A stretch of 64,000 bases of DNA from an uncultured virus (IMG/VR IMGVR_UViG_3300047554_000629) (IMGVR_UViG_3300047554_000629:1-64000), one strand, 5' to 3'; positions 28,902-64,000 are shown, counted from the first letter of the stretch. The notes: generated by a model from the letters alone, not told the origin. A program made the numbers and translations.

Positions 28902-29999
28902 TTAGATCGGGCTCAGAATGTTCTGAATCAGCCAGCCAGAGGCTGGGGCAGCAAGCACTTCCTGAATTTCTTCCGTGACGTAGCCGCGTGTCATGCGGTT
29001 CTCAGGATCATCGAACGTCTCAAGTTCGATTTCCTTGCCGTAGTAGTACAATTGCAAGGTCGAGAAGTTGGACGAACTTGCCATTCCGTCCAAGCCTCCG
29101 ATTCGAGATAGAACAATGGCCGAACTGTCATCCTTGATAAACCGGCGTCCAGGGACAGCGCCAGTCACCGAGGCCTCAGAACCGATTGCGGCCGATGCGG
29201 AATCACGTTCGGTCACAATGCTGGCGTCTTCGACCAGAATGTCCCAGCCATAAAGCTGATCCGGCAGACCCCACTGAGAATTCTGCCCAGGCTCACGACC
29301 CTTCACCTGTGCCATCGCAAATGGCGATTCACGCAAGTAATCATGAATTTCAGGAGACCGGCTGACTCGAAGGGCCGCATTCGGGCTCAACATCAAACGC
29401 AACAGACCCTTGTTTCGGAAGTTCACTGCGCCGTTGGTGTACAAGTTGATCCGAGCGCCAACGGTATCCAGCGTGCTCTTGATCGCAAGGTAGTTGCCGC
29501 TGCCAGGATCAGACGAGGACAAATCCCAGAACCCGCGACCGCCGTTCAAAGAGTTGGCCGTCGCCGTGTTATTGCCCCAGCCGCTTGTCGTCTCAAGCAA
29601 CGTAATTGCTCGCTGAGTTCTGGCCGTCATAAGTCGGCTTCGTGCTTGCATGGACTCCACATCGAGAACCTTGATGTCGGCTTGTTCGATGAGCTTCCAG
29701 TCAAGGACGAACTTCTCAAATCGCCGTTCGGTCTGGAACTCAACGGTATCGAACTTCGCACCGTTGAAGTCGCCGATGTCTCGGCGCATTCCGCCTTTCC
29801 AGACGTTTTCCTTGTCGTTCACAGAGCGAACGAACGAATCCACGCCGATCCTGTAATAGAGACCGACCGTTTTCTTGGTCTCAATCAGCTGGGCGTAGTC
29901 ATTCAACAGGAAGTTCTTGGGGTCGCGGGCAAACATAATTGCTTGCCCGGTCGCTTCTGGAACAAAGGCGTTGAATTCACCGAAAAAGTTCAAGGCCAC
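28902..29999 (-). CDS. major capsid protein (HK97-fold expected)
   Basis: 365 aa, AGGAG RBS, after scaffold and decoration genes; WGLPDQLYG...APASGWLIQNI. Confidence 0.75.
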   Translation of the reverse strand: MALNFFGEFNAFVPEATGQAIMFARDPKNFLLNDYAQLIETKKTVGLYYRIGVDSFVRSVNDKENVWKGGMRRDIGDFNGAKFDTVEFQTERRFEKFVLDWKLIEQADIKVLDVESMQARSRLMTARTQRAITLLETTSGWGNNTATANSLNGGRGFWDLSSSDPGSGNYLAIKSTLDTVGARINLYTNGAVNFRNKGLLRLMLSPNAALRVSRSPEIHDYLRESPFAMAQVKGREPGQNSQWGLPDQLYGWDILVEDASIVTERDSASAAIGSEASVTGAVPGRRFIKDDSSAIVLSRIGGLDGMASSSNFSTLQLYYYGKEIELETFDDPENRMTRGYVTEEIQEVLAAPASGWLIQNILSPI

Positions 30000-37582: not shown

Positions 37583-37630
37583 ATCCTTTATAGGGGGATG
37601 CAATATGGCAACCGAACGACGGATGATGTG

Positions 37631-38336: not shown

Positions 38337-41300
38337 TTACACCAGATTGTTCTTTTTCAACACAGCCCAGCACTTCGGGAATTTTGCTTTGGCTACATTT
38401 GGCTTGGTTATGGCAAGACGAACATACTCTGCCCACCCCTCGTGAGCATTAGACATTGCATATGAACTTAGCGGAGCTTTTTTCTCGTCTTCGTGCAGGA
38501 TTTCAATAACCCATGCTTTTTTCCAATCAAAATCACTGCTGTAGGACAAATCGCCCAATTTGCCGTCAATAATATGGCCAATCTCATGGGCATAAACGCT
38601 GGACATTCTTGTGTCCGCAAGTTTCCCTTCGTGTTTTATACTCGGCGCGCCGTCAAGAAACATGCCGCCAGAACCAACCTCGACGGCTCCTCCAACTCTA
38701 CCGTCATTATCCGTCGCTGTGGATTTTGATATATCTTCAGAAAGCCTCTTTGATGTTGGATAGAACTTCACATGCCGAAGGTTCTTCAAAAGCGAGCCTT
38801 TCATCTTTGGATTCATACTGGAAATCGTCTTAACAATTCCAGACTTGAACTCGCTCTTGAGGCCATTCGGAATATCCTTGTCTTTGTCTATTGATGAATG
38901 AATCGCTGACACAAGATCATTGCTGTTCTTTGGATTGGCGGAAATGATATTCCCTTTTATCCACCTGTTTGGGTTTTCTGAAACAGGAGGGCGTGCAAAT
39001 GCCGCAATTACACCGCCTACAGCCGCTGACGCTACCGCAGACTTACCAGCAACAACCAGTGCGTGTTCTACAGAATCGCCTAATGCCATATTGCGTACAA
39101 ATACAAGAGCCCCAGCAGTAGCAGCACTTCCAAAAGCGCCTTTCAAAAAGTTCACAGCCCTTGCAGTAACAACGCTGTGCCCGTGAGTCATTCCTGGAAC
39201 TTTTTCTTTTCTAACAACAGACGATCTTTTCCCAGGCGACAATGCCGCCTTTTCGCTCGAACTTGCTCTGGCAATCGCTTCTTTGGGTATAAACTCTCCG
39301 CCCTTGAAGTGCTCTCCGCCAACTTCGATTCCGCCCTTGGGGGCATGGACAGCCTCGTATCCAATTGCCTGATTCATAATCGGTGCAATTTGCGCTGATT
39401 TCTGGGAGTACGACTCCAGCGCCCTTGCAACAGCCGGTGCTAACGCGGACGCCTCTGCATTTGCCAGTTCTTCAAGGGCCACTTCGGACACTTGAATGCC
39501 ACTACGCCGAATGCGGTTCTTGATCTTGTCCCGAATCCATAGCGATACAGCGCCTTCGCTGTGGCTGTCCGAAGACGGTTTATTGAGCAAATGAACCAAC
39601 GCATCTCCAGCCACGTTCTTGGCGACATTTTTGATGTGTGCCCTCAAGTCTTCAGTCGGCTTGGATTCCGGCATTGGCTTTTCGCCGTCGATGCCAGACA
39701 TGCTGAGCATCAGCGGCGCATACCGCTCTGCCGCTTCAGATGCCTCGCTCACCAAGTCTTCCTCAGTGGCCTCGATTCCGGCCTCTTTCATGGCCTCTTG
39801 CATCTTGCCCTTGAACAACTCGACAAGGTATTCGTGCATCACCGCCGAGGCCGGAACTTCATCCTGATAACCGACCATCCACTCGTCATCCTGGCTCGTT
39901 ACTAAGCTGCCGCCCTTCTTTTTCATGAGCACGTCGAATAGCTTCGGGATGAGCATCACGCCCTTCTTGATGCCCAACACAGCCAAGTCCATCGTGGCCT
40001 GTGTCGCTGCCCGAAGAGCGAGTCTCTTCAAAGCATCTTTCTCGTTTGGAACCCTAGAAGACTTACCTGTCACCGGGTCTATCACGAGTTTTGTTTCATT
40101 AGGATCGATGCCAAGAGAGATTGCTGTCTTATCAAACGCTCCCTGTGCCAACGGGCTCTTGGCGATGTCTCGCCTCAGTTTCTTAGGGTCTCTGATCATC
40201 CGTTCCGCGATCTTGCCAGCGTACTTGGCCGTCTCGTGAGCCGCCTTCGGCACGCCTCTGAGGCTCTGCTTCTTGTCAAACGCCTTCGACCGATTGCCGG
40301 AATACTGGTCGATGATCCGAAGCGCCATCGTGGCCACGGTGTCTTCGCCAGTGGCTGTAACTTCGCGCTCACGTTGATAAGCCCGACCACGGGCACGGGC
40401 ATACTCATGCGGCGTTAGGCTACCGAATTCCTTGATCTTGTTCATCACATATGGCCGAAGTTTGAAGTCCGTCTTCAGCCAACGCTCGGTCTCTTGGATC
40501 AAGTCATACTCGTTGCCCATCAGGATCGGCTCATCAGGCTTCGGAGCCCGAATCCCAGCCTGTTCCAGCATGTCATCGACAGTGGCCGGTTTGTCTTCTT
40601 GTTTTTCAGACCTGTCCATGCCGGTTTGCTGCGTCTCAGGCTTCTTGCCATGATCCTGCGGCCTGGAAGCAGGCATCTCCGGCACTTTCTCGCCTGAAAT
40701 CGCCTTCTGGCCAGCCAATGCCGCCTTCTCCTCCGGCGATGCGCGGGCAATCACAGAGCCAGGAATAAACTGGCCACCTTCGTAGTGCTTACCGGAAATG
40801 TCAATACCACCCACCGGCGCACGAGTCGCCTTGTACTCAATCGTGAACTCATCATCAGACACCGCCAAATACTCGATCACAAGGCCATCGTTGGCCATCG
40901 ACACCTGCCCACCCTCTTCAGGCGGGGCCGGATCAAGAGGAACACTCGTCCCGTCAGCCAAACGAATGTAATTCCCGTCTTCCGTCTCGTCTGTGTTCTC
41001 TTCGCCCATGATTTCTTCAAGTATCTGATCAACCGTCATATCGCTGGCCTCTTCGGCCACTTGCTCGTCCCGCTGGACCTGTTGCTCTTGCTGCTCTTGG
41101 GCCGCTTGCTCCTGGGCTTGCTGTTCCTGTTGTTCCGCTTGCTGCTGCTCTGCGGCTTGTTCTTGGCCCTGTTGCTGCACTTGGGCCTCTTGATCTTGCG
41201 GCATCTCTTGAGGCTGGCCCTCTGCTGGAACTTGCATCTGTTGTTGCGCAGCTGCTTGCTGTTGCTGGGCCTGCATTTGCTGCTGCATCTGGGCTTGTTG

Positions 41301-42776
41301 GGCCTCCATCTGAATCTGCGTTTGCGCCTTGAGCAACTCAATCTGCGTCTCTGTTTGAACCTTGGACTGAACCTTAAGCAACATCTCCTGGTTAAGAATT
41401 TCATCGTCAGGCTCAGGAGCCTTGAGGCCAGCGTTGGCCAAAAGCTCGTCTTTCCTGACAGAGCCGCCCATCTGAAACACCGCCGAAGCATTCTTCAACT
41501 TCGCATCGGCCTTTGGATCATCAACATCAAATACAAATCTGACCCTGAAGTTGGCCTTGGGGAAATTCCATCGCTGAATTACAGGGATATAATCTTCAGA
41601 AAAAGTGTCGGCCAAATTGTTTGCGTCAAACTTCAGGATGCGCCATTTAGTGTTCTCATGGAACTGAGATACTCCGCTGCCAAGTCCCGTTGCCTCTGCA
41701 TTGGCGCTCAAAGTCTGGCCGATGATCAATCGCTCGATGTGCTGCTCAAAGTATTCCTTGACGATATTGATCAGGATGTTGATGCCGCCGCCTTCAAACC
41801 GAAGCAAATCAACACCGGCGGTATCCTTGCTCTGCCCACGGGTCTTCGGCATTGCGATGGCGTATCGTTCGCCGACGTTTTGGGCTGCGGCCTCGGCTTC
41901 TGCCTTGGAATTTGGATTGCCTTCATCATAGTAGAACACCATGATGCCACCGATGCTCATCTTCTTCAGGTGGTTGATCGCCCACCCAAGCATCTCGTCA
42001 CGAAGCTGGAAATTCCAGTAAATCTGAGACCGCAAGCCAACGCCATGCACGCCGCCTGACATCTCGCCTTCAAAGAAGTCGGCGTCAACGCACTGGTGTT
42101 TGTGGATGATGAACCGCTGCCGCCACTTCGGGTCTTTCAGCCGAAGCACCATCGACCTTTGATCCGAGAAAAGGTCTTCTTCCTTGACGATGCCGCGTTC
42201 TTTCAACGTCCGGCCAATAGAGTGATTGACCATCACCCTTGGAACATCGTCATGGCCGTACAGGATTTTGTCGCCATTGACCGGCTTGTGCCCGACGACT
42301 CCAAGCCGATTCTGGCCATCAATCGGAATCGCGCCCCACTTGACCTGATTCGCGTATCGGCCATACCAGATCGCCCAAGCCAGCTGCCAAACGAACGGCG
42401 TCCACCGCGACGTATTGGCCACGATCTTCGACATATCATCAGTTACGGCCTTTTGAATCTTGCTCTTTTGGTTCTCAGGCTCAAGATGCCAGCCAAGAGC
42501 CGAAAGCTGAAGGAATCTCTCGTTCATGCATCCCAAAACGAACGCATCACGAAGCATCGCCAGCGCGTTTTCGCGGCTGTGCTTCGTGGCCTCGTCATGA
42601 GTCCATCGATGAGACCGAGTTACGGATTGATAAATTGATGAGAATGTTCTGTGCTGCGGCAACAGAAAGCCGCCCTCGTCTTCGATGGGTCGGCCATTGT
42701 GATCAAGCAGCCGAAGCGGTCCACTCCCGTTTCGGCTCATCAGGCCATTAACGTCTGGTTCTGGTAGCAGTGCCAT
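38337..42776 (-). CDS. portal protein (DUF935/Mu gp29-like) fused via a Gln-rich linker to a C-terminal zincin metallopeptidase
   Basis: IIGQTLS...GLGSGVSQFH portal motif; HEIGH...SSYAMSNAHEGWAE. Confidence 0.75.
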   Translation of the reverse strand: MALLPEPDVNGLMSRNGSGPLRLLDHNGRPIEDEGGFLLPQHRTFSSIYQSVTRSHRWTHDEATKHSRENALAMLRDAFVLGCMNERFLQLSALGWHLEPENQKSKIQKAVTDDMSKIVANTSRWTPFVWQLAWAIWYGRYANQVKWGAIPIDGQNRLGVVGHKPVNGDKILYGHDDVPRVMVNHSIGRTLKERGIVKEEDLFSDQRSMVLRLKDPKWRQRFIIHKHQCVDADFFEGEMSGGVHGVGLRSQIYWNFQLRDEMLGWAINHLKKMSIGGIMVFYYDEGNPNSKAEAEAAAQNVGERYAIAMPKTRGQSKDTAGVDLLRFEGGGINILINIVKEYFEQHIERLIIGQTLSANAEATGLGSGVSQFHENTKWRILKFDANNLADTFSEDYIPVIQRWNFPKANFRVRFVFDVDDPKADAKLKNASAVFQMGGSVRKDELLANAGLKAPEPDDEILNQEMLLKVQSKVQTETQIELLKAQTQIQMEAQQAQMQQQMQAQQQQAAAQQQMQVPAEGQPQEMPQDQEAQVQQQGQEQAAEQQQAEQQEQQAQEQAAQEQQEQQVQRDEQVAEEASDMTVDQILEEIMGEENTDETEDGNYIRLADGTSVPLDPAPPEEGGQVSMANDGLVIEYLAVSDDEFTIEYKATRAPVGGIDISGKHYEGGQFIPGSVIARASPEEKAALAGQKAISGEKVPEMPASRPQDHGKKPETQQTGMDRSEKQEDKPATVDDMLEQAGIRAPKPDEPILMGNEYDLIQETERWLKTDFKLRPYVMNKIKEFGSLTPHEYARARGRAYQREREVTATGEDTVATMALRIIDQYSGNRSKAFDKKQSLRGVPKAAHETAKYAGKIAERMIRDPKKLRRDIAKSPLAQGAFDKTAISLGIDPNETKLVIDPVTGKSSRVPNEKDALKRLALRAATQATMDLAVLGIKKGVMLIPKLFDVLMKKKGGSLVTSQDDEWMVGYQDEVPASAVMHEYLVELFKGKMQEAMKEAGIEATEEDLVSEASEAAERYAPLMLSMSGIDGEKPMPESKPTEDLRAHIKNVAKNVAGDALVHLLNKPSSDSHSEGAVSLWIRDKIKNRIRRSGIQVSEVALEELANAEASALAPAVARALESYSQKSAQIAPIMNQAIGYEAVHAPKGGIEVGGEHFKGGEFIPKEAIARASSSEKAALSPGKRSSVVRKEKVPGMTHGHSVVTARAVNFLKGAFGSAATAGALVFVRNMALGDSVEHALVVAGKSAVASAAVGGVIAAFARPPVSENPNRWIKGNIISANPKNSNDLVSAIHSSIDKDKDIPNGLKSEFKSGIVKTISSMNPKMKGSLLKNLRHVKFYPTSKRLSEDISKSTATDNDGRVGGAVEVGSGGMFLDGAPSIKHEGKLADTRMSSVYAHEIGHIIDGKLGDLSYSSDFDWKKAWVIEILHEDEKKAPLSSYAMSNAHEGWAEYVRLAITKPNVAKAKFPKCWAVLKKNNLV
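39378..39400. repeat. 23-bp palindrome family, copy 6 (in frame, degenerate)
   Basis: AATCGGTGCAATTTGCGCTGATT, read as SAQIAPI. Confidence 0.65.
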
Positions 42777-43663: not shown

Positions 43664-43795
43664 TCATTTGTGCCCCTTGATAAAGGAAAGAACCACGCCC
43701 CTGAAATACGAAGACAAATCGCGGCCAGCAACCTTACGAGCGGCCTTCATCTCCTCTTGCGTGAGGAGAATCTGAAGCCGCTCGGTACGCTTCAT
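43664..43795 (-). CDS. putative ribbon-helix-helix regulator (43 aa, not in ORF track)
   Basis: MKRTERLQILLTQEEMKAARKVAGRDLSSYFR; stop overlaps next ATG; divergent from the MTase. Confidence 0.5.
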   Translation of the reverse strand: MKRTERLQILLTQEEMKAARKVAGRDLSSYFRGVVLSFIKGHK

Positions 43796-43865
43796 GTTTT
43801 TAGGCATTGCCGTTCTGCCGCGTTTTCGCATACTATATCATTATCATAACTATAGAGGATCGGCA

Positions 43866-44885
43866 ATGGTGAATGTCGGCAAACACGAGTTGCACCACGG
43901 CAATTGCCTTGACATTCTCAAGTCCATGCCGGACAAGAAGGTGTCTCTGACACTCACGAGTCCGCCGTATGAAGACTGCCGAACCTACGGCATTGATTTC
44001 TCTGTCAAAGGCCAAGACTGGGTTGATTGGTTTATCCCCATAGTCATCGAATGTTGCCGAATCACTGATGGCCTAGTGCTTGTAAACGCAGCCGGGAAAG
44101 TCCGTGACTTCAAATACTCGCCGGTCATGGAATGGCTTGTGGCCGATCTGACACGCAAACACGGCATCGTATGCGGCCCGTCGCCATACGTCTATTACAG
44201 AGTCGGAATCCCAGGCAGCGGAGGCCATCACTATCACCGCCGAGACTGGGAGCCTGTCTATGCCTTCGCTCTTCCAGACCGACTTCCATTGAACTGGTCG
44301 GATAATAAAGCCACTGGCCACAAACCAAAGTGGGTTCCTGGCGGAGAAATGTCATACCGGCTTGGAGACGGCAAACGTGCTAACCACAAATCTCAAGGAC
44401 GAGACAAGTGGGGAAATGCTGGCGAATCATCCGGCGAAGGAAGAAACGCCGATGGCAGCAGAAAGAAGAGGAAGCGATTCGGTGCCAATCCTGAAGGCGA
44501 CGTAAAAGTCTCACACGACAGAGACATTGTTGATATTGCCAACGCTGGCAATCGAATAAGTGAGATGTACGACGCCGACATGGTTAAAAAGCTGCTCGAC
44601 GACGGAGACGCGGGCGACATCGTTCACTGCAAAGTCGGCGGCGGTCTTATGGGGCATCCTTTGGCGTCACAAAACGAAGCCCCGATGTCTCTCACGCTGG
44701 CCTCTTGGTTCGTTCGCAGCTATGCGCCGCCAGGAAGCTACGTCCTTGATCCGTTCATGGGCAGCGGAACTTCTCTGCACGCCTGCCTCGAAACCGGCCG
44801 AATCGGAATCGGCATTGACATCAGGGAATCCCAAGTGGAACTGACAAAGAGCCGTCTTGAGTCTGTTACACCGTCTATGTTCTGA
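43866..44885 (+). CDS. N4-C/N6-A DNA methyltransferase, beta class
   Basis: TSPPY before VLDPFMGSGT. Confidence 0.85.
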   Translation: MVNVGKHELHHGNCLDILKSMPDKKVSLTLTSPPYEDCRTYGIDFSVKGQDWVDWFIPIVIECCRITDGLVLVNAAGKVRDFKYSPVMEWLVADLTRKHGIVCGPSPYVYYRVGIPGSGGHHYHRRDWEPVYAFALPDRLPLNWSDNKATGHKPKWVPGGEMSYRLGDGKRANHKSQGRDKWGNAGESSGEGRNADGSRKKRKRFGANPEGDVKVSHDRDIVDIANAGNRISEMYDADMVKKLLDDGDAGDIVHCKVGGGLMGHPLASQNEAPMSLTLASWFVRSYAPPGSYVLDPFMGSGTSLHACLETGRIGIGIDIRESQVELTKSRLESVTPSMF

Positions 44886-45379: not shown

Positions 45380-45775
45380 GGGGAACATGAAGCCAACTCA
45401 GCAGACTACAAAACAGGTTAATAGACCATCTCGGTCATGCGTTTGTGCCACTTGCACTCTTGACGAGAGGCTCAGAAGCAATGGCTTCAAGATTCTAGCT
45501 AGGCCAAGAAATTCTCAGCCGATCTGGATAAAGGACGGGAAGCAGTTTCTTCAGTCTGACGCCGTTCAGCAGTGCAAACCTTTGCCAGCAAAAAGGTAGT
45601 CACGCGATTCCCAACCGAAAGCGTAAGCCGTCTGAAAAGCCGCCTTCGTATTGGGCAGAGCATGTAAGAATTGTCGAAGAAGAAAACAAAAAGCTGCGAA
45701 CCATCATAGTTGACATGATGCACAAAATGCAGCAAGCAGCTGAAATTGCCTCTCCGTTCTTCAGAAAGAGCAACC

Positions 45776-46366
45776 GTGAAGCTACTCTTGAATAACTGGA
45801 GAACGCCAGCAACCGGATACAAGCTGAAAACACTCGGCTGCGCGTCCATCGTCGCAACCGAATACCCCAAGGGCGTATATCCGATGCACGGTGAGTCCGG
45901 CTTCTCAGACTTCCAGTGCCTCAGTCCGATCCGAATCACCATGCTGGCCATCAATGAACACGTTTCGATGTGGGACGAGCCTCCTCATTGGTACGGCATC
46001 CAGCGATGTGCCAGGGCCATGCACGGGAAAGTCCTTGTCGCTGGCCTCGGTCTTGGCCTAATCGCCCATGCCCTCAAATGGAACAAGGCTGTCCGCGAAA
46101 TACTGATCATCGAAAACAACCAAGACGTTATCGACCTCATCGGCCCCATGTGCCCACGCTCGGCACAAATCGAACACGCCGACTGGTATCGATGGGAAGG
46201 CCGATTCGAGCCAGATAGCGTACTCATGGACTTGGCAGATGGCGATTACACCAAAGAACGTGTGGCCGACGAAACCGAGAAATGCCGACAAAGGTTCCCA
46301 TCGGCGACAACGATCTCCGTCCACGGAAGCGTAGAGTCTAGGCAGAACGAGATGAGTGCTTTCTAA
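45776..46366 (+). CDS. spermidine-synthase-like SAM-dependent transferase
   Basis: GKVLVAGLGLG...IIENNQDVI. Confidence 0.65.
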   Translation: MKLLLNNWRTPATGYKLKTLGCASIVATEYPKGVYPMHGESGFSDFQCLSPIRITMLAINEHVSMWDEPPHWYGIQRCARAMHGKVLVAGLGLGLIAHALKWNKAVREILIIENNQDVIDLIGPMCPRSAQIEHADWYRWEGRFEPDSVLMDLADGDYTKERVADETEKCRQRFPSATTISVHGSVESRQNEMSAF

Positions 46367-46428: not shown

Positions 46429-47502
46429 TTAGCCCGCGACTTTTGGGGCCGGTTTACTGACGGCCCAAGCCCTCAAATTGAGGGCAGCGTTTCGGTCGGC
46501 ATTTGTGGAGTGCCCGCAATGTTTGCAGACAAACTCAGACTGGCTCTTTCGGTTGGCACGCTCGCAGTGGCCGCAGACATGGCACGTCTGGGAACTGTAT
46601 CGCGGGTCAACCAAGACTACGGACACGCCTGCCCGTCGGGCCTTGTACTCCACAAACTGCCGAAGCTGAAAGAAACTCCAGTTGCCAAGTCGTCGCCGGA
46701 AACGCCTAGAAGCCGTTTGCTCACAACGGTCACGCAAACCGGAGAGGTTCTCCAGAGCGATACCGATGCCGAGTGTCTTGGCTTTGCCGACAAGACTCTT
46801 GCTGATGGCGTGGTTTACCCATGCTTGATAGCGGGACTGCCGCCCCGCCATCCGCTTCAACCGTCGCTTGGCAGACTTGGTTCCTTTCCGTTGGTACTGC
46901 TTACGGGCTGTCATCCGGCGCTTGCGGTTTCGTTCGACACCCGCACCGGAGAACGATTCCCCGGTGGAGTCGGTAGCAATCTGGACAATGCCAAAGTCAC
47001 AACCCAAGTATTCGGTAACCGGCTGTGGGTCGGAAACGGTCGCCTTGACTTGAACATGCAGAAAGTAACCGCCATCGCGTTTGACAAGTGCAGCGCTGGT
47101 CGGAACCTTCCCCGCAAGCGCGGTTCGCTGAAAGTCGCCAAGTTGGGTCGTCAGTCGATGCCGCCCATGCAACAGGGTCAGGCTGAAAGTCCAGTCGGAT
47201 TCTCGGAAGGAAAAGATTCGAGCATCGTAGTTCACGCTCGTAGGAGCAAATCGGGAGAGGTCTTTTACGGCGGCAACGCGACCGATGGCACGAACGGCCA
47301 GATTCGCCGACAGCCCGAACGCAGTCCGCGTTTCGCGGTAGGCCAATTTGTGCAGAGCGAGATGTCCTTTAGTCTCTGTCTCTGCCGCACGACGAACCAA
47401 GTGATTGCACGCCGCAGCGAAAGCCACAAGTGTAACGTCGATTTCAACCGCCTGTTCAGCGGTCGGAACCAGCTTGCAACAGATGGTACGGATGGCTTCC
47501 AT
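46429..47502 (-). CDS. tnpB: TnpB RNA-guided nuclease
   Basis: GCDFG, ALENL, zinc ribbon, NADRNAALN. Confidence 0.9.
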   Translation of the reverse strand: MEAIRTICCKLVPTAEQAVEIDVTLVAFAAACNHLVRRAAETETKGHLALHKLAYRETRTAFGLSANLAVRAIGRVAAVKDLSRFAPTSVNYDARIFSFRESDWTFSLTLLHGRHRLTTQLGDFQRTALAGKVPTSAALVKRDGGYFLHVQVKATVSDPQPVTEYLGCDFGIVQIATDSTGESFSGAGVERNRKRRMTARKQYQRKGTKSAKRRLKRMAGRQSRYQAWVNHAISKSLVGKAKTLGIGIALENLSGLRDRCEQTASRRFRRRLGNWSFFQLRQFVEYKARRAGVSVVLVDPRYSSQTCHVCGHCERANRKSQSEFVCKHCGHSTNADRNAALNLRAWAVSKPAPKVAG

Positions 47503-47895
47503 TCAGACACCCTTCTGGTTCTCGATGTACTGCTTGATAACGGCCAGAGGCGCGCCGCCAACAGTCGCGACAAAGTAGGAGTTCGTCCAGAGCGATGGCA
47601 ACCGGCTACGCAACGCTGGGTACTCCGTGCGCAGGAACCGGGACGAACGGCCCTTGACCAACTTTATCAGCCGGTGGATTCCGAACTGTGGATCGACTTC
47701 AACGAGCAGATGTACGTGATCGGGCATCACTTCCATCTCGATCAGTTCCGAACGGGTTTCAAGGATCACTTCCCGAATCAGATTCTTGAGCCGTTCATCA
47801 ACGCCGTCGATCAAGACCTTGCGACGATACTTGGGGCAGAAAACAACGTGGTACTTGCAGCAGTAGGACACGTTGTTATTGCTCTTGAGCCTCAT
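47503..47895 (-). CDS. tnpA: Y1 HUH transposase
   Basis: YHVVFCPKYRR, DHVHLL, LWTNSYF, YIENQK. Confidence 0.95.
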   Translation of the reverse strand: MRLKSNNNVSYCCKYHVVFCPKYRRKVLIDGVDERLKNLIREVILETRSELIEMEVMPDHVHLLVEVDPQFGIHRLIKLVKGRSSRFLRTEYPALRSRLPSLWTNSYFVATVGGAPLAVIKQYIENQKGV

Positions 47896-48092
47896 TCCTG
47901 TATTATACACGTCCGAGATGTCGAATGCCACCTCAGTAGCGTGGATTCGCCGTCTCCATTCCTCCCCATGCCTGAAGGCAGGGGTTTCTTGGAGACATTT
48001 CATGAACAGCAAAGCCAAATTTTGGTTTGTGTTCGCTATTGTGTCTTCATGCTTTTGTGCGTTCTTATTCTCAATCTACTCATGGAAAGTCT

Positions 48093-48116
48093 GGTAGTGG
48101 CTCAACATGGTGTTGA
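48093..48116 (+). repeat. 24-bp inverted repeat, left copy
   Basis: GGTAGTGGCTCAACATGGTGTTGA; exact reverse complement at 49309-49332. Confidence 0.95.
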
Positions 48117-48140
48117 CAACCTGGACGACCCTGATAGAGT
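48113..48140 (+). promoter_or_regulatory. sigma70-like promoter of the stand-alone tnpB (probably leaderless)
   Basis: TTGACA-16 nt-TAGAGT, 7 nt before GTG. Confidence 0.55.
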
Positions 48141-48147
48141 TATCCTT

Positions 48148-49323
48148 GTGCTGAAAACGATTACCTATCGTCTGTACCCGTCGCGGGAGCAGGAATCTTT
48201 CCTGTTCTACTTCCTCTACATTGGCCGCAAGATTTACAACGACGCACTTGCCGAGCGCGTCCGGTTCTACAAAGACACTGGCAAAAGCCTGACTAAATTC
48301 ACGCAACAGATGGACCTGACGATACGCAGGTCAATTAGCCCGGTGCTTGCCTCTGTCCCTGTCTGGATTGAGCGAGACTCCCTGTCTAGGATAGACAAGG
48401 CATTCGCCAATTTCTTCCGCAGAGTAAATGAAGGGAGTGCCAAGCCTGGGTTCCCGCGATTCAAGTCAGCCAATCGCTGGAACAGTTTCTCAATGCCTAT
48501 CCAAGGCAGTGGCAAGAAACTGGTGCAAGGAAATAGAATCCGCGTGGCCGGGATTGAAGGAACAATGCCAAGCCGTGGCGGGCAACAAATACTTGGAAAG
48601 ATCATTGTCCAGAGAATTGTTCATCGAGCAGGCAAGTGGTTCTGCAAGTTCGTAGTTGATGACAAACTCGACCCACCGCCTATTCATCCTGTAAAGTCGG
48701 CTATCGGCGTCGATGTTGGTCTGAAATCGTTTGCAACGCTTAGCAACGGTTCAACGATTGAGAATCCACGATTCTATCGGGGACTGGAACTCAAGCGTGC
48801 CCATCGCAACGTGTCTCGTAAAATCAAAGGCAGTCGGAACCGATGGAGAGCCGTTCGTCGTCTTCAATCGGTTTATGAGAAAGTCAGAAACTTACGCCAC
48901 AATTTTACGCATCACGAGAGCAAGAGGATTGTCAATGACCACCAACTGATTGTTGTCGAAAAACTGAACATAGCTGGCATGGCCAGAAGCCGATTTGCCA
49001 AAAGTATCTTGGACGCTGCATGGGGTCGGTTCATATTTCAATTGCGTTACAAAGCTGAAAACGCTGGTTGCGCATTCGTTGAAGTTGACCCCCGTGGCAC
49101 AAGCCAAGATTGCAGCAAGTGCGGCCAGACCGTGCCAAAGAAGTTGTCGGATCGTGTCCATAAATGCTCTTGCGGTCTCGTGCTAGACCGCGACCATAAT
49201 GCGGCGTTGAACATCCTTCAGCGTGCCGTTCGATCAGCACCCGGCCCCGGTAGGTGGATCGGTAAAGCGTGTGGAGAGGCTACGAAGACTCGGCGAAACA
49301 CGAAGGCTTCAACACCATGTTGA
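48148..49323 (+). CDS. tnpB: stand-alone TnpB with intact RuvC D-E-D
   Basis: TYRLYP, GFPRFK, GVDVGL, VVEKL, TSQDCSKC, DRDHNAALN; true start lies inside the 937-aa track ORF. Confidence 0.9.
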   Translation: MLKTITYRLYPSREQESFLFYFLYIGRKIYNDALAERVRFYKDTGKSLTKFTQQMDLTIRRSISPVLASVPVWIERDSLSRIDKAFANFFRRVNEGSAKPGFPRFKSANRWNSFSMPIQGSGKKLVQGNRIRVAGIEGTMPSRGGQQILGKIIVQRIVHRAGKWFCKFVVDDKLDPPPIHPVKSAIGVDVGLKSFATLSNGSTIENPRFYRGLELKRAHRNVSRKIKGSRNRWRAVRRLQSVYEKVRNLRHNFTHHESKRIVNDHQLIVVEKLNIAGMARSRFAKSILDAAWGRFIFQLRYKAENAGCAFVEVDPRGTSQDCSKCGQTVPKKLSDRVHKCSCGLVLDRDHNAALNILQRAVRSAPGPGRWIGKACGEATKTRRNTKASTPC

Positions 49324-58489: not shown

Positions 58490-59236
58490 TCAACAAACAA
58501 TCCTGCCAATGTTCCGAAACAGCCGATCATCGGCCTTGCGTTCGCGCTCTACGACTCTGTACAGGTGATCCACAAGCGGCTTGAACTCACGCATCTTGGC
58601 CAATGACTTGGCCTCGATCTGCCGGACCCGCTCTTTGCTGATCCCAAGGTCATTGCCGATGTCCTCAAGGGTTTCTCCACCAACGAATCGCCGGACGATG
58701 ATGCTGTAATACCGCTTGTCGAGGCAGAACGACATGAGGGCCTTGGTCTCTGGCGCAAGGTCTTCTGGAACTTCCTCATACTCTGGCCGATCAACAAAAT
58801 CAAGCTGGTTGGCATCCCTGAACCTGGAGGATGCTTTGATCTGATTTTCGACCACTGACATTGGCAGTACGTGGATTCTCTTGATCCACTCGTGTTCTTT
58901 TGTTGCCCCGATTCTGGTTGTTGCTTTACCAGCGGCCTTATGGATGCAGTTCTTGATCCAGTGGAACGAATATGTTCCCTTTGAGGCTCCGTGAGACGGA
59001 TCGTACCGGACAAGGGCCTCGCACATGCCCAAGACACCGGCCTGAATGAAGTCATCGAGCCAGTTGAGGTACAGTTGGCCTTGTTCGTGGATGTTTGTCA
59101 TTGCGGCCAGGATGTAGGCGCACCTTCGGGCCTCCTTGTAGACAAGTTGCATGTTGGCCATCACCCATTCCTGATCTTCTTTGTCAAGCCTTGACTTTGG
59201 CTCTTTGGATTGGACAATTCCTTCTGCCGATAACAT
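58490..59236 (-). CDS. sigma-70 family RNA polymerase sigma factor
   Basis: DFIQAGVLG...RYDP...TYSFHWI (region 2); TLEDIGNDLGISKERVRQIE (region 4). Confidence 0.85.
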   Translation of the reverse strand: MLSAEGIVQSKEPKSRLDKEDQEWVMANMQLVYKEARRCAYILAAMTNIHEQGQLYLNWLDDFIQAGVLGMCEALVRYDPSHGASKGTYSFHWIKNCIHKAAGKATTRIGATKEHEWIKRIHVLPMSVVENQIKASSRFRDANQLDFVDRPEYEEVPEDLAPETKALMSFCLDKRYYSIIVRRFVGGETLEDIGNDLGISKERVRQIEAKSLAKMREFKPLVDHLYRVVERERKADDRLFRNIGRIVC

Positions 59237-60192: not shown

Positions 60193-60654
60193 CTAGTCGA
60201 TGAGGAACAGCTTCACGTTGACCGTGGAGCCAGAGTAGTTGCCTATGGCTATACTATCGACTGCCTCCATCGTTGGTTCACTTCCGCCCGTAATTAGGGT
60301 TGTGTTCGCTGCCGGAAGTATCGAGCCATACCCACAGAGCCAGAATGGGAAGTACGGCCTGATCTTGTGCGTCACGTTCCCGGTCTGCCCGATCAACTGA
60401 AGGTAGATGATCTGGTCGGCCCAGCAGTACAGGTAGTCGAAGTCCACCGGGTAGTTGGAATCCTCGTCCCACAGAGTCCGCACCGTGGCCGTTGGCACTT
60501 GGCCAACGAACGGGTAGACGAGTCCGGTGACGGTCGGGCTCTCAGAGAACGAGTACAGTTCATCAGGCGAACTGTCGGATTCGCCCTGGTTGGCGGCGAA
60601 GGTTGTGCCGTTGATCTCGATCTCGAATCGAGAGACGATGCCTAAGTTTGCCAT
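60193..60654 (-). CDS. hypothetical beta-rich protein
   Basis: Clean ORF, GAAAGG RBS. Confidence 0.55.
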   Translation of the reverse strand: MANLGIVSRFEIEINGTTFAANQGESDSSPDELYSFSESPTVTGLVYPFVGQVPTATVRTLWDEDSNYPVDFDYLYCWADQIIYLQLIGQTGNVTHKIRPYFPFWLCGYGSILPAANTTLITGGSEPTMEAVDSIAIGNYSGSTVNVKLFLID

Positions 60655-60836
60655 GAGACTTTGCCTTTCTGATCAAGCCTGTGAAACAATGCAAGACACG
60701 CCAACCCGACCACTTCAGGAGCACCATGCTTCTTGTAGTTGGCCACAGTGTTCCTATGCAGGCCAAGCAATGAAGCTGCCTCACCGTCGCCTATGCCCAT
60801 CGAGAGCATCCACTTTACAAAGTCTTCGGCACTCAT
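60642..60836 (-). CDS. small HTH regulator
   Basis: EAASLLGLHRNTVANY. Confidence 0.65.
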   Translation of the reverse strand: MSAEDFVKWMLSMGIGDGEAASLLGLHRNTVANYKKHGAPEVVGLACLALFHRLDQKGKVSWQT

Positions 60837-61160
60837 TTGCACAATTTTAGTGCATTTTGCGGCGGTGGACATCACAAATTTTGTGCATTCGGCTAGTTGC
60901 GGTCGTCATGGTCTGTTTCGCCTCTGAAGTGCTCTCCAAGTCCGGCAGACGACGCTTGGCCATGAACGGCATGGATTTCCTCGAATTTCTGGTAAAAACT
61001 CCCTGGTTGCCCAGGCAGGTTGCTGCCGGTGCAGGCATAATCGTGGTCGCTCGCATGTGGGCAACGCTTGTTGCCGCACGTCGGACACCTTGGCATTTGC
61101 CGCTCAAGCAGGTTCGGCGTTCTCTCATGAACACACCGGACACACATGCAATCAAGAAGG

Positions 61161-61847
61161 TCAGACATGGCCATTGCTCCCGTTCGTAGATAGCCCGTGT
61201 GCAACACCATTTAGCGTAGGACGCACGATCTCGGCTTCAGGTAGCGGAATAGCGACTCTGGACTTAATATCGGCCAGTAGGGCCAATAGACCGGCTTTGT
61301 GGGTGTCTACTTCGGCGAGTGACAAGCCGCCAGAGGTCAGGTCGATTTTCTGGGCCGGACGTTGGTTGTCTGGCATGATGGCATACTTGTCCTCGATGGC
61401 CGACAGATGGGGGTGCGGATCACGGAGTTTGTAAGTGACTTCGCCGTCTTTGGTTATGGTGATACCGGCGATCATACGCCGGGCTTCTCGTGGTATCTCG
61501 TGTATGGGTTTGGACTTGCCGTTTTCGTCGAATAGATCGGCTGGGTCTTGGTACGCTATTTGTTGCCGGATTTTCCTTGTGCGCTTGTATTCTATGGCCA
61601 TTTGGGCGGCTTCGTGGTCCTTGACGTGCTGCTGGACTTCTTTGAGGTACGCGGCCACATCTGGACGTTTGAGTAGTGAGTAGGCTCGCTGTTGCGCTTG
61701 CTTGTCGGTTTGGGCGGTGAAGCCAGCTTGCTTGTAGGCGCGGGCTCTGTTGCCGGTGGCGATGTAGATGTGGACGAAGTTGGCGTATCGCCCCCTGAGA
61801 GTGTTGAACTTCTTGGGCTTGATCGGGTTTGGTTCTCGTTCAGACAT
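61161..61847 (-). CDS. terS: terminase small subunit
   Basis: NRARAYKQAGF...AYSLLKRPDVAAYL; DPADLFDENG. Confidence 0.8.
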   Translation of the reverse strand: MSEREPNPIKPKKFNTLRGRYANFVHIYIATGNRARAYKQAGFTAQTDKQAQQRAYSLLKRPDVAAYLKEVQQHVKDHEAAQMAIEYKRTRKIRQQIAYQDPADLFDENGKSKPIHEIPREARRMIAGITITKDGEVTYKLRDPHPHLSAIEDKYAIMPDNQRPAQKIDLTSGGLSLAEVDTHKAGLLALLADIKSRVAIPLPEAEIVRPTLNGVAHGLSTNGSNGHV

Positions 61848-61856
61848 GGTGATGAC

Positions 61857-63362
61857 CTACTGTTTGGCCTCTTGGGTGTTCACTTGAACATGCGGCTTGG
61901 CCTGCTCGATGATTTGGCAGACATCGGCTTCATAGAATTGGGCAGACATCTCGACACTGGCCGTGACAACGCTCGGCTTGGCCATGTCACAGATGATGGA
62001 GAGCTTGGTTACGCCTTTGGGGTTGATGCCGAGTGTTTTACAGAGCATTTGTCCGAATACGGATGATACGTTGAATTTCGCCTTGGGCTCATTTTTTGCT
62101 GGAGTCGCAAACGGGTCTTTGATCATGATAGGACTGCCGCAGCCATCCTCAAAAGAAATAAAAGAGTGCTCGCTTTTTAAAACAACGACTTTCACCCCGT
62201 AAACAAAGTCTGTTAGGCCATACTTGGCGTTTGTACTTTCAAAGAACTTCTCTCCCCAGTAGTTCCTTACATAGTCTCTGATCTCGTGCGTCCTTGACAG
62301 ATCGAGCGCTGTCATCTCGCCGCCTATTATCATCAATATGCCTTCACTTGTTGGCCTTCTGAAATGCCTTGCAACATATCCAAGAGAGTTGTTTATTGCC
62401 ATGAATCCAGGCGATCTAGGGTCAGCGCTGGCATGTGGCCAACCACTTACCATCCTTAGAAAATCTCCGTGTAAAATTTCAGTTGACTCTTCTTTCTGAC
62501 TGAGCGAGCGGAATGGGTCTTTGATTACGGCATTTTTGACATCGCCGTTAGTCATTTTGGCACAAATCAAAATGCCGTCCACCTTCCCTTTATCTTTTTT
62601 GATAATTATCTCTAATCCGTACAAGAAGTGCGGTAGCCCCCATGCGGAGTTTGGCCAGACGTATTTGGCACCGTTGACCCGTGGCTGGTCTCCGACATAC
62701 GTGGTGCGAATGTGTTCTCTCACTTCGTCTGTTTTTGAAAGAAGGCCAGCAGTTCTCTGGTCAATCTTCATAGAGACCTGCACAGGCGTCTCGCCGTTTG
62801 TAATAGAGGCGATGGCAATGTGAAGCGTTCTTTTGATTTCCAAGTAGTGCGGCGAATTAGGATCAGCATTTGCCTGCGTCCAGTCAAATGATAGTTCTGG
62901 AGTTTCATCGAATGCTTTTACTTGTCCAAGCATCCTCAAGATTTCCTTGCGAATAATATCGGCGCTCAGCCCCTCTGCTTGCAGAGCCTCAGAAGCAAGA
63001 CCTTCTGGCTCACGGATAAGGCCAAGCAATAAGTGCTCAGTCCCCACATAGTTGTGATTGAGGCTTCTGGCTTCCTCAATCGAGCATTCGATCACTTTTT
63101 TCACAAGAGGAGTATGCGAAAGTCTCCCCATCATCGCCGTCTCCAACTTTGGGCCGGTTTGGGCAATTGCTTCCACTCTCGTTTCGATCTTTCGGAGATC
63201 GATGTCGAGGTTTTTCAAGACATTGGCAGCTACTCCTGATCCTTCCTTGACCAGCCCCAGCAAAATGTGCTCGGTGCCGATGTACTCGTGGCTTAGACGT
63301 TGGGCCTCTTGGTTGGCCAGCTGCATCACCTTGCGAACCCTGTCGGTAAATCGTTCATACAT
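61857..63362 (-). CDS. ClpC N-terminal domain fused to two capsid-like domains, no AAA+ module
   Basis: MYERFTDRVRKVMQLANQEA...GTEHILLGL twice; aa 161-255 and 308-395 align to capsid aa 158-258. Confidence 0.85.
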   Translation of the reverse strand: MYERFTDRVRKVMQLANQEAQRLSHEYIGTEHILLGLVKEGSGVAANVLKNLDIDLRKIETRVEAIAQTGPKLETAMMGRLSHTPLVKKVIECSIEEARSLNHNYVGTEHLLLGLIREPEGLASEALQAEGLSADIIRKEILRMLGQVKAFDETPELSFDWTQANADPNSPHYLEIKRTLHIAIASITNGETPVQVSMKIDQRTAGLLSKTDEVREHIRTTYVGDQPRVNGAKYVWPNSAWGLPHFLYGLEIIIKKDKGKVDGILICAKMTNGDVKNAVIKDPFRSLSQKEESTEILHGDFLRMVSGWPHASADPRSPGFMAINNSLGYVARHFRRPTSEGILMIIGGEMTALDLSRTHEIRDYVRNYWGEKFFESTNAKYGLTDFVYGVKVVVLKSEHSFISFEDGCGSPIMIKDPFATPAKNEPKAKFNVSSVFGQMLCKTLGINPKGVTKLSIICDMAKPSVVTASVEMSAQFYEADVCQIIEQAKPHVQVNTQEAKQ

Positions 63363-64000
63363 GATTTCCTAGTCCTTTCGTTGCAAAGAGGTCTATCTCA
63401 TGGCTTGTCCGCTTCTTGCTTGTTGTCATCATTCTTGATGCCAAGCCGACGTTCGGCCCAGCGCAACAATGCGTATACCACGCCTGCCACTGGAACGCCC
63501 AGAGACTTTACCACTTCGTCCTGGTCGATCTTGCTGGCGAGAATCCAGAGCGGCGCAACACATATGACGCCGACAACGCCTATCTGAACCGTGGGCCAGA
63601 AGTGTTTATGTTGGTAGAATTTAATAGTGGCTTACCTCAGTGTTGATAGCCGATGCGTTTCATCGAGCCTGCTTCCGTTTCCAGAAGTCTTACTGGCTCT
63701 CCGCGCCCGCGCCTAAAAGCACGGCCACGAACTATCATAGCCGCAGCAACATCCCGGTTACAGGATAATCCGCACCATTTGCACGAGTTCCGATCACCTA
63801 GTTCGGTGTGGCGGTCCAGATTGCGACTATTCCGCCATGCCAACGCAAGGTAAAGGAGGCGGTCCATGTTGGACCTGAGAAGAGCCGCTTATTGACAACG
63901 GCTGTCTCTGTTTTCGCCCGGCCAGTGTTAGCGCACCGACCGGGCTATTGAAGCGGCAAGCCCACGTAGCCTAATGGAAAGGCACCCTGTTCGTACCGGG

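What the first reader, a model, noticed from the sequence alone, without database searches (positions are those of the whole stretch)
61857..63362. ClpC N-domain fused to two diverged copies of the phage's own capsid segment
Seen: capsid aa 158-258 reads WDLSSSDPGSGNYLAIKSTL...TNG...AALRVSRSPEIHDYLR...NSQWGLPDQLYGWDILV. Repeat 1 (~62511-62882) reads WTQANADPNSPHYLEIKRTL...TNG...LLSKTDEVREHIR...NSAWGLPHFLYGLEIII. Repeat 2 (~62109-62441) reads WPHASADPRSPGFMAINNSL...TALDLSRTHEIRDYVR...NAKYGLTDFVYGVKVVV. Both repeats end in IKDPF, and there is no AAA+ module. Established: ClpC N-domains bind adaptors and tagged substrates, and some defence systems (CapRel, Lit) sense major capsid protein. Inference: the segment is probably the HK97 A-domain, and the protein may be a bivalent capsid decoy that soaks up capsid-sensing immunity proteins and links them to Clp proteolysis, or a regulator of capsid assembly. 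I know of no described protein with this architecture.
Basis: partly seen in the sequence, partly recalled or inferred. Interest (0 to 1): 0.9.

Follow-up and report, generated by a model that had tools for sequence, protein, structure and literature searches.

The report
Phage ClpC-head fused to capsid pieces
An uncultivated freshwater phage carries an intact gene that joins a near-copy of its host's ClpC substrate-docking domain to two worn copies of the central domain of the phage's own type of capsid protein, an arrangement found nowhere else and whose job is still a guess.

Summary
ORF 61857-63362 (-) encodes 501 aa: a ClpC-type N-domain (Pfam Clp_N E 7e-32; 75% identical, gapless, to a Planctomycetes ClpC), then two tandem units (aa 161-284, 308-418) that each match residues ~158-257 of the phage's major capsid protein (MCP, 28902-29999 -) by BLASTP (E 4e-9, 6e-8) and the MCP family profile (hhalign E 5e-12, 4e-11), then an 82-aa orphan tail. 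There is no AAA+ module. The MCP model is a confident HK97 fold. The copied segment lies between the spine helix and the C-terminal sheet, so it is the A-domain by topology. The repeats are sisters on long branches inside the MCP family and keep the family's conserved columns. Origin from the phage's own MCP is neither shown nor rejected. The architecture is a singleton: no homologue in 1.84 billion representative proteins, and no extra A-domain copy in 25 related virus records. Function is inferred only. The likeliest role is a soluble, non-assembling A-domain mimic tethered to a host-ClpC-NTD mimic, acting as a decoy or competitor. Multivalent NTD sponge and MCP-binding assembly factor are close rivals. 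Real and odd, with mechanism untested.

The parts
61857..63362 (-). Whole gene, 501 codons plus stop: ClpC N-domain, two A-domain repeats and a tail
   Evidence: The same sequence is found in a second IMG/VR record of 104.7 kb and in two contigs from another assembler.
62925..63362 (-). ClpC-type N-terminal domain, aa 1-146 (two Clp_N repeats; GTEH motifs at aa 29-32 and 107-110)
   Evidence: Pfam Clp_N E 7.1e-32. PDB ClpC1/ClpC NTDs score E 5.5e-39, against 1.4e-5 for ClpB and about 6e-4 for ClpA. 109 of 146 residues are identical, without gaps, to a Planctomycetes ClpC.
62511..62882 (-). A-domain repeat 1, aa 161-284 (W-x-x-A-x-A-D-P ... IKDPF)
   Evidence: BLASTP E 4e-9 to MCP 158-257. hhalign E 4.6e-12 to the MCP family. 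It keeps 6 of 9 aligned columns that are >=90% conserved in the family.
62109..62441 (-). A-domain repeat 2, aa 308-418
   Evidence: BLASTP E 6e-8. hhalign E 4.1e-11. It keeps 5 of 8 aligned columns that are >=90% conserved. Its match to repeat 1 has E 2e-12.
61860..62105 (-). Orphan C-terminal tail, aa 420-501
   Evidence: No relation to the MCP profile (hhalign probability 0.15%). No match in Pfam, PHROGs, PDB sequences or 1.84 billion representative proteins.
63363..63380 (-). Shine-Dalgarno-like AGGA motifs 4 and 10 nt upstream of the ATG
   Evidence: Read directly from the sequence.
61161..61847 (-). Small terminase subunit gene, 9 bases (61848-61856) downstream on the same strand (probable co-transcription)
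   Evidence: Pfam Terminase_2 E 5.4e-14; phrog_51 E 1.7e-13.
28902..29999 (-). Major capsid protein gene (HK97 fold), a member of the family from which the repeats derive
   Evidence: AF2 pLDDT 83.7, pTM 0.81. Foldseek probability 1.00 to solved phage capsids, including HK97 Head II. It lies between a cement/scaffold-like gene and a head-tail adaptor gene.
29127..29528 (-). MCP residues 158-291, the segment homologous to the repeats (A-domain by topology)
   Evidence: In the model it lies after the spine helix H111-136 and before the C-terminal strands E293-349.

Best explanation
SHOWN. This is an intact accessory gene of an uncultivated freshwater phage. Its product has three parts. The first is a near-copy of a planctomycete ClpC N-domain with both phospho-arginine-pocket glutamates in place. 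The second is two tandem, strongly diverged copies of the axial (A) domain of the phage's MCP family; they lack the N-arm, E-loop and P-domain that a subunit needs to join a capsid lattice. The third is an 82-aa orphan tail.

INFERRED. The protein is a soluble double mimic. The A-domain pair presents the conserved core of the capsomer-forming domain without being able to assemble. The N-domain presents what host ClpC shows to adaptors and phospho-arginine-tagged substrates. Most likely it works as a decoy or competitor made alongside or before capsid protein. It would occupy host factors that recognise free MCP A-domains (capsid-sensing immunity) and/or ClpC-N-domain ligands, so that new MCP escapes sensing or ClpC-dependent destruction.
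For: Architecture and homology.

The fold looks maintained by selection. About 350 codons after the N-domain stay open despite roughly 70% divergence between the repeats. Identity to the MCP family also tracks family conservation: in columns >=90% conserved R1 keeps 6/9 and R2 5/8; in columns <50% conserved they keep 8/59 and 6/47.

The repeats are sisters (support 97/92) on branches of 1.78 and 1.43 against a median of 0.39, so they evolved faster after leaving the lattice.

Host mimicry: the N-domain is 75% identical over 146 aa to a Planctomycetes ClpC, with 57 of the first 60 residues identical. Both GTEH glutamates are kept; passages of PMC12583610 call E32 and E106 the crucial pArg determinants.

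Accessory, sporadic distribution, as is usual for counter-defence genes: Clp_N occurs in 2 of 26 related virus records (this phage and one other). Extra A-domain copies occur in 0 of 25 other records. In a relative the position upstream of terS holds unrelated small ORFs.

Precedents from abstracts: an N-domain-only ClpC homologue binds a ClpC1 N-domain ligand (PMC10030653, search listing), and a phage protein modulates ClpCP (PMC6873191).
Against: No binding partner was shown by any search. The repeats are only about 28% identical to the MCP, so surface mimicry of an epitope is uncertain. P206 and E257, nearly invariant in MCPs, are lost in both repeats. A decoy that shows the same interface as MCP could trigger a sensor rather than block it. 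No capsid-sensing system is known for the presumed host group. The gene is a singleton, with no orthologue in 15 billion clustered proteins, so no comparative support for function exists. The low G+C of the repeats (46.9% and 45.1%, against 53.0% with sd 2.7 for 43 genes) would also fit relaxed constraint.
Confidence: 0.33

Rival explanations
1. Multivalent ClpC-N-domain sponge. The A-domains are reused only as a self-assembling hub; three tandem pairs could close a six-fold, capsomer-like ring. The hub displays several N-domains that soak up ClpC adaptors or phospho-arginine-tagged proteins and so retune host ClpCP. Capsid recognition plays no part.
For: A-domains are the part of the HK97 fold that meets around the capsomer axis (PMC13581612 passages). 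Stand-alone Clp_N genes recur in phages: Myrna gp251 of 235 aa, a 199-aa gene in related record G003, and phrog_35667. The N-domain therefore looks like the recurring functional unit and the rest variable. The N-domain is far better conserved (75% to host ClpC) than the repeats.
Against: No oligomer was predicted or measured. The single-sequence fold of the protein failed. It is unclear why two copies of a capsid domain would be recruited rather than a coiled coil.
Confidence: 0.22
2. Capsid assembly factor. The A-domain pair binds the A-domains of nascent MCP or capsomers as a chaperone, cap or size regulator. The N-domain's hydrophobic groove holds unfolded MCP or recruits host factors to procapsids.
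For: The natural partners of an A-domain are other A-domains. Family-conserved residues are retained in both repeats. The gene sits directly upstream of the small terminase gene.
Against: 25 of 25 related virus records have a single MCP-profile match and no such factor. The gene lies about 32 kb from the head module.
Confidence: 0.18
3. Evolutionary accident. A chimeric ORF was made by illegitimate recombination between a captured clpC 5' end and duplicated MCP fragments. It is tolerated but has no function.
For: It is a singleton. The repeats have low G+C and very long branches.
Against: The frame stays open over 501 codons despite deep divergence of the repeats. Substitutions spare family-conserved columns. 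The N-domain is kept at 75% identity. SD-like motifs are present and the gene is tightly packed in an operon.
Confidence: 0.12
4. Minor virion protein: a decoration or vertex component that docks on capsomers through its A-domain-like units.
For: It is homologous to the MCP. Paralogous capsid proteins exist in other phages (T4 gp24, recalled, not checked here).
Against: It lacks the N-arm, E-loop and P-domain needed to enter an HK97 lattice; only MCP 158-291 is matched. It lies outside the structural module.
Confidence: 0.05

Closest known systems
Stand-alone ClpC N-domain proteins of phages (phrog_35667; Mycobacterium phage Myrna gp251, 235 aa; 199-aa gene in related virus record G003)
   Same: A phage-encoded ClpC-type N-domain without any AAA+ module. 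phrog_35667 matches aa 1-146 at E 7.5e-39. Myrna gp251 is 47% identical over aa 1-158.
   Different: Those proteins carry only a short tail of 55-90 aa. Profile positions 154-235 of the PHROG are not matched here. None carries capsid-derived domains. Their function is unknown.
Mycobacterial ClpC2 (partial ClpC1 homologue)
   Same: A non-proteolytic protein built on a ClpC1-N-domain-like module that binds N-domain ligands (cyclomarin A, phospho-arginine). Sources: abstracts of PMC10030653 (search listing) and PMC13345244. PDB ClpC2 chains match at E 4.7e-14.
   Different: ClpC2 is cellular. Its N-domain-like module is C-terminal and it acts as a transcriptional repressor. This protein matches true ClpC/ClpC1 N-domains far better (E 5.5e-39) and carries capsid domains.
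SPO1 Gp53, a phage adaptor-like modulator of B. subtilis ClpCP
   Same: A phage protein aimed at the host ClpC system (abstract of PMC6873191).
   Different: Gp53 binds ClpC like an adaptor. The protein here copies the ClpC domain that adaptors bind, so it would compete with ClpC rather than activate it. No sequence relation was seen.
HK97-fold major capsid proteins, and MCP paralogues used as minor capsid proteins or by satellites (T4 gp24, PICI Ccm; both recalled, not checked here)
   Same: The repeats are homologous to an HK97-fold MCP.
   Different: Only the A-domain is present, it is duplicated in tandem, and it is fused to a host-derived domain. It cannot be a lattice subunit.
Targets of capsid-sensing immunity (Avs7/8/10, CapRel-SJ46)
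   Same: The copied domain is the one whose capsomer-forming interface Avs7, Avs8 and Avs10 bind (PMC13581612 passages) and which CapRel-SJ46 touches (PMC9712102 passages).
   Different: No sensor of the presumed host is known, and no capsid-derived decoy is described in the texts searched.

Membership tests
Clp_N / ClpC N-terminal domain (PF02861) | Two tandem Clp_N repeats scoring above the Pfam gathering cut-off | tested here: met
   109.8 bits against a cut-off of 20.7, two stretches. Both repeats are also found in the sister record at 64.4 and 59.1 bits.
Clp_N / ClpC N-terminal domain (PF02861) | ClpC type rather than ClpA or ClpB type | tested here: met
   PDB ClpC1/ClpC NTDs score E 5.5e-39 to 1e-37, ClpB 1.4e-5 and ClpA about 6e-4. 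75% identity to a Planctomycetes ClpC.
Clp_N / ClpC N-terminal domain (PF02861) | Glutamates of the two phospho-arginine pockets (E32 and E106 in ClpC, per PMC12583610) | tested here: met
   GTEH is present at aa 29-32 and 107-110 and aligns with the same motif of ClpC1. The role of these residues comes from passages read. Binding itself was not tested.
ClpC/Hsp100 AAA+ unfoldase | AAA+ modules D1 and D2 and an M-domain | tested here: not met
   Pfam lists only Clp_N at E<=1. The PDB alignment to full-length ClpC stops at about residue 180. This is not an unfoldase.
HK97-fold major capsid protein | Sequence homology to an MCP whose model has the HK97 fold | tested here: met
HK97-fold major capsid protein | The complete fold: N-arm, E-loop, P-domain with spine helix, A-domain | tested here: not met
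   Only MCP 158-257 (up to 291 with the IKD strand) is matched, twice. The tail is unrelated to the MCP. This is not a capsid subunit.
HK97-fold major capsid protein | The repeats themselves fold like an A-domain | tested here: inconclusive
   The single-sequence AF2 model has pLDDT 34.5 and the Atlas model pLDDT 0.52. The case for the fold rests only on retained conserved columns.
Phage stand-alone Clp_N proteins (phrog_35667) | Match over the whole 235-position profile | tested here: not met
   Only profile positions 11-153 are matched, by aa 1-146. It shares the N-domain but not the family's tail.
Anti-defence decoy or sponge | Binds and neutralises a host immune sensor or its signal | not testable with these tools
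   Host and sensors are unknown. No call bears on it.

The most novel reading that the evidence does not exclude
This would be the first capsid-derived molecular decoy. A phage has excised and duplicated the A-domain of its capsid protein, the surface that several bacterial pattern-recognition receptors read, and fused it to a copy of the host ClpC docking domain. The non-assembling mimic would soak up capsid-directed sensors, or the ClpC-dependent route that removes capsid protein, before real capsomers appear.
Probability: 0.15. Interest if true: 0.9.

Novelty: new variant of a known kind. Interest (0 to 1): 0.62.

Why it matters
Capsid proteins are now known to be prime triggers of bacterial immunity, and the A-domain interface is a recurrent target (PMC13581612 passages). 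The known escape route is point mutation of the capsid. A phage that makes a separate, freely evolving copy of the sensed domain would be a different principle: counter-defence by self-mimicry.

Independently of that idea, the 75% copy of a host ClpC N-domain adds a clear case to a scattered, unstudied set of phage Clp_N genes. It suggests that competition for ClpC's substrate and adaptor docking site is a recurring phage strategy in ClpC-bearing hosts.

It is also a clean natural example of an HK97 A-domain surviving as an independent unit under selection. That is relevant to how this fold can be dissected and reused.

Tried and rejected
- Structure of the fusion protein: single-sequence AF2 gave pLDDT 34.5 and pTM 0.21, unusable. 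The ESM Atlas holds the sequence, but its model has pLDDT 0.52, and neither the feature hits (<=0.80) nor the structure hits (TM <=0.30) mean anything.
- Complex prediction of MCP (42-row alignment) with repeat 1 (30-row alignment): verdict 'no answer', score 0.00 in two runs, controls not run. It counts neither for nor against binding.
- RNA evidence: no RNA holder listed among the 2 runs found. The two DNA runs come from one sample that may be the source, so they are not independent support.
- Relatives of the repeat region:
  - 1 of 1444 word-index candidates, the protein itself.
  - 4 hits among 1.84 billion representatives: the protein itself, a 242-aa MCP-like protein, and two large repeat proteins (WD40 and others) taken as spurious.
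  - None in JGI metagenome contigs.
- Host assignment through prophages: the MCP alignment found nothing in genome contigs, and the MCP found nothing in the 50,697 phage records.
- First attempt at search for related loci with the 42-row alignment failed because no stretch was conserved enough. It was repeated with 12 close rows.
- The weak match in record G004 (E 0.003) is a high-GC ORF with no visible likeness and was dropped.
- Tail versus MCP P-domain: no relation.
- Promoter scan of 61000-64000: 1 site found against 2.0 expected, not informative.
- Considered and rejected: a frameshifted or second MCP gene, because only the A-domain is present, twice, and the tail is unrelated; and an assembly chimera, because of the continuous contigs and because the short cellular clpC contigs differ by 1-5 letters in their 32-50-letter matches.

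Full report
WHAT IS THERE.

The window is bases 1-64000 of a 71.8-kb IMG/VR virus record. The same phage occurs in a second record of 104.7 kb. On the minus strand, 61857-63362 is one open frame of 501 codons. Two AGGA motifs lie 4 and 10 nt upstream of its ATG. The small-terminase gene follows 9 bases downstream on the same strand (Terminase_2 E 5.4e-14). Further downstream are small ORFs and a sigma-70-family gene at 58490-59236.

The head module lies about 32 kb away:
- a 1479-aa protein with a Mu-type portal domain, 38337-42776 (PF06074, E 1.2e-35);
- a cement/scaffold-like gene, 30033-30422;
- the 365-aa protein at 28902-29999;
- a Mu Gp36-like head-tail adaptor, 27698-28237.

THE DONOR IS THE MAJOR CAPSID PROTEIN.

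The 365-aa protein has no Pfam hit. It has 68 homologues of 200-639 aa in the 5.8-billion-protein index, none of them annotated. Folded with 41 of these, it gives a confident model: pLDDT 83.7, pTM 0.81. Foldseek matches that model at probability 1.00 to solved tailed-phage capsids (HFTV1, P-SCSP1u, PhiTE, Sf14, T5 and HK97 Head II at E 2.2e-9), with at least 378 chains at E<=0.001.

In the model a long helix, H111-136, is followed by a helix-rich region with short strands (H172-187, E200-204, H206-233, E252-256). Then come the C-terminal strands E293-349. By the standard HK97 topology this is spine helix, then A-domain, then return to the P-domain sheet. Residues 158-291 are therefore the A (axial) domain. 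This step is an inference from topology, not a residue-level superposition.

- N-domain. Residues 1-146 are a double Clp_N domain (E 7.1e-32), and nothing else in Pfam matches at E<=1.
- Repeats against the MCP, by BLASTP. Residues 161-255 align to MCP 158-257 (30% identity, E 4e-9). Residues 308-412 align to MCP 158-272 (28%, E 6e-8).
- Repeats against the family profile. For the 42-row MCP profile the hhalign E-values are 4.6e-12 and 4.1e-11. An HMM of that family finds both units in the phage record at E 1.8e-11 and 6.6e-9.
- Repeats against each other. They are 27% identical (E 2e-12). Both end in IKDPF, which lines up with the MCP strand FIKDD at 287-291 in a local alignment. The repeated unit therefore spans essentially the whole A-domain.
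- Tail. The last 82 residues match neither the MCP profile nor Pfam, PHROGs or PDB sequences, and nothing in the 1.84-billion-protein representative library.
- Assembly. Two contigs made by a different assembler from two runs of one freshwater sample cover 60500-64000 with no differences, at word depths of 31.6 and 21.5. The sample may be the source, so this excludes an assembler-specific join and nothing more. The short high-depth contigs that touch 63241-63296 differ by 1-5 letters in their 32-50-letter matches and are cellular clpC genes.

WHERE THE PARTS CAME FROM.

The N-domain is 75% identical, without a gap, over 146 residues to the ClpC of a Planctomycetes MAG, and 57 of the first 60 residues are identical. 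It matches solved ClpC1/ClpC N-domains at E 5.5e-39, against 1.4e-5 for ClpB and about 6e-4 for ClpA. Both GTEH motifs are present. Passages of PMC12583610 name the glutamates of these motifs (E32, E106) as the crucial determinants of the two phospho-arginine pockets. They also describe the N-domain as the docking site for MecA, McsA/McsB and pArg substrates. The probable host is therefore a planctomycete, and the N-domain is a host-derived mimic that has been kept close to the original.

The repeats tell a different story. They are 26-32% identical to many members of the closer MCP subfamily, 14-18% identical to the most distant members, and no closer to this phage's MCP than to others. In a maximum-likelihood tree of 45 A-domain segments, the two repeats are sisters (support 97/92) on branches of 1.78 and 1.43, against a median of 0.39. 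They sit inside a 21-row clade that contains the phage's MCP, but outside its own 10-row clade. AU tests do not reject an origin from the phage's own lineage (p 0.097) or from the 10-row clade (p 0.18). The simplest history is one capture of an A-domain from an MCP of this subfamily, a tandem duplication, and then fast divergence. 'The phage's own capsid' remains possible but unproven.

IS IT UNDER SELECTION?

Identity of the repeats to the MCP-family consensus residue (42 MCPs) tracks family conservation:

| Family conservation of column | R1 keeps | R2 keeps |
|---|---|---|
| >=90% | 6 of 9 | 5 of 8 |
| 70-90% | 10 of 18 | 9 of 17 |
| 50-70% | 13 of 31 | 11 of 23 |
| <50% | 8 of 59 | 6 of 47 |

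In a 30-row alignment of A-domain segments, the four invariant columns (T, A, E, G) include both repeats. The frame has stayed open through this divergence. Two residues nearly invariant in real MCPs, P206 and E257, are lost in both repeats. That would fit release from lattice-specific constraints. The repeats have lower G+C (46.9% and 45.1%) than the genes of the window (53.0%, sd 2.7, n = 43). I cannot tell whether this reflects amino-acid change or relaxed constraint.

HOW UNUSUAL IS IT?

- The repeat region has no relative among the 1444 word-index candidates other than itself.
- A full phmmer pass of aa 150-501 over 1.84 billion representatives gave four hits: itself, a 242-aa MCP-like protein (see below), and two large repeat proteins that I regard as spurious.
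- JGI metagenome contigs gave nothing.
- Among 26 virus records with a related MCP, all 26 have the MCP. Only the sister record of this phage has the two extra A-domain matches, so 0 of the 25 others do.
- Clp_N occurs in 2 of the 26: this phage, and record G003, where it is a 199-aa N-domain-only protein 39% identical to this one.
- In relative G002 the terS gene is preceded by unrelated small ORFs.
- tblastn of the whole protein against 50,697 phage records matched 31 records, all through the N-domain only; 0 cover 80% of the query. Many of these are short unannotated fragments that may be host DNA. Myrna gp251 (235 aa) and Phabba are clear phage cases.
- PHROGs has a family for such proteins, phrog_35667, function unknown. 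It matches only aa 1-146.

MECHANISM.

Nothing beyond the anatomy is shown. My reasoning runs as follows.
- The protein cannot be an unfoldase, because it has no AAA+ module.
- It cannot be a capsid subunit, because it has no N-arm, E-loop or P-domain.
- Both recognisable parts are copies of surfaces that other proteins read. The ClpC N-domain is read by adaptors and pArg-tagged substrates. The A-domain is read by neighbouring subunits and, according to passages of PMC13581612, by Avs7, Avs8 and Avs10 at the capsomer-forming interface. CapRel-SJ46 also touches an A-domain loop (PMC9712102).

A soluble double mimic acting as a decoy or competitor is therefore the reading I favour (0.33). Three rivals stay close:
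- The A-domains may serve only as an oligomerising hub for a multivalent N-domain sponge (0.22).
- The pair may bind MCP and act in assembly (0.18).
- The ORF may be a tolerated accident (0.12).

PMC12583610 does describe N-domain contacts with ClpC M-domains in the resting state, so docking in trans is conceivable but purely speculative.

PRIOR DESCRIPTION.

Four full-text searches turned up no capsid-derived decoy and no Clp_N-capsid fusion. A 2025 preprint cataloguing 268 anti-defence proteins does not contain the word 'capsid'. A 2026 review of phage countermeasures mentions capsid proteins only as triggers and escape mutants. These searches cover open-access papers and bioRxiv only.

VERDICT.

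This is a real, statistically solid and so far unique chimaera. The functional half remains a hypothesis with several equally good rivals.

Noticed in passing
window 46510-49323 (+): A 937-aa ORF. Its C-terminal 390 aa are a TnpB/Cas12f-like module (HTH_OrfB_IS605, OrfB_IS605, Cas12f1-like TNB; phrog_506 E 4e-92). They are preceded by a roughly 540-aa N-terminal extension with no family match, an unusually long TnpB inside a phage.
   Followed up: no
window 38337-42776 (-) and 33161-37603 (-): Two giant head-module ORFs of 1479 and 1480 aa. The first has a Mu-type portal domain only at aa 73-447, so about 1000 aa are unexplained. The second has only a weak lysin-like stretch at aa 1065-1136.
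   Followed up: no
proteins P0074-P0143: Planctomycetes encode many AAA-less 'Clp N-terminal domain-containing' proteins of 300-700 aa. Some score higher than the query's own N-domain, which suggests several N-domain copies. Others are fused to UVR (PF02151), four-helix-bundle (PF05635), Uma2 endonuclease (PF05685) or HIT (PF01230) domains. This looks like a diversified N-domain-only family in the presumed host phylum.
   Followed up: no
protein P0071 (242 aa, from a 26-kb contig): A second MCP-derived protein that is not a full capsid subunit. An unrelated 66-aa N-terminus is followed by a segment 38% identical to MCP 134-266 (E 2e-26) and a shortened C-terminus. It is the best database match of the repeats (31%). 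Its context could not be fetched.
   Followed up: partly
L065 1336-1935 (-) in related virus record G003: A 199-aa N-domain-only ClpC homologue, 39% identical to this one, next to a DNA methyltransferase-like ORF and a dCTP-deaminase-like ORF. At 39% identity (against 75% between this protein and a Planctomycetes ClpC) it may be an independent capture of the ClpC N-domain by a phage of the same MCP family.
   Followed up: partly
window 58490-59236 (-): A phage-encoded sigma-70-family factor (regions 2 and 4) in the same minus-strand gene block as terS and the fusion gene. Relative G002 also has a sigma factor next to terS.
   Followed up: no
window 62109-62882: The two repeats have G+C of 46.9% and 45.1%, two to three standard deviations below the window's genes (53.0%, sd 2.7). 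The N-domain (50.7%) and the tail (51.8%) are nearer the mean.
   Followed up: partly
window 43794-44885 (+), 45746-46366 (+), 8098-8982 (+): Three methyltransferase-like genes: an N6/N4 DNA methylase, a PHROG methyltransferase and a SAM-dependent methyltransferase. A GNAT acetyltransferase lies at 115-564. All are probable accessory or counter-restriction genes.
   Followed up: no
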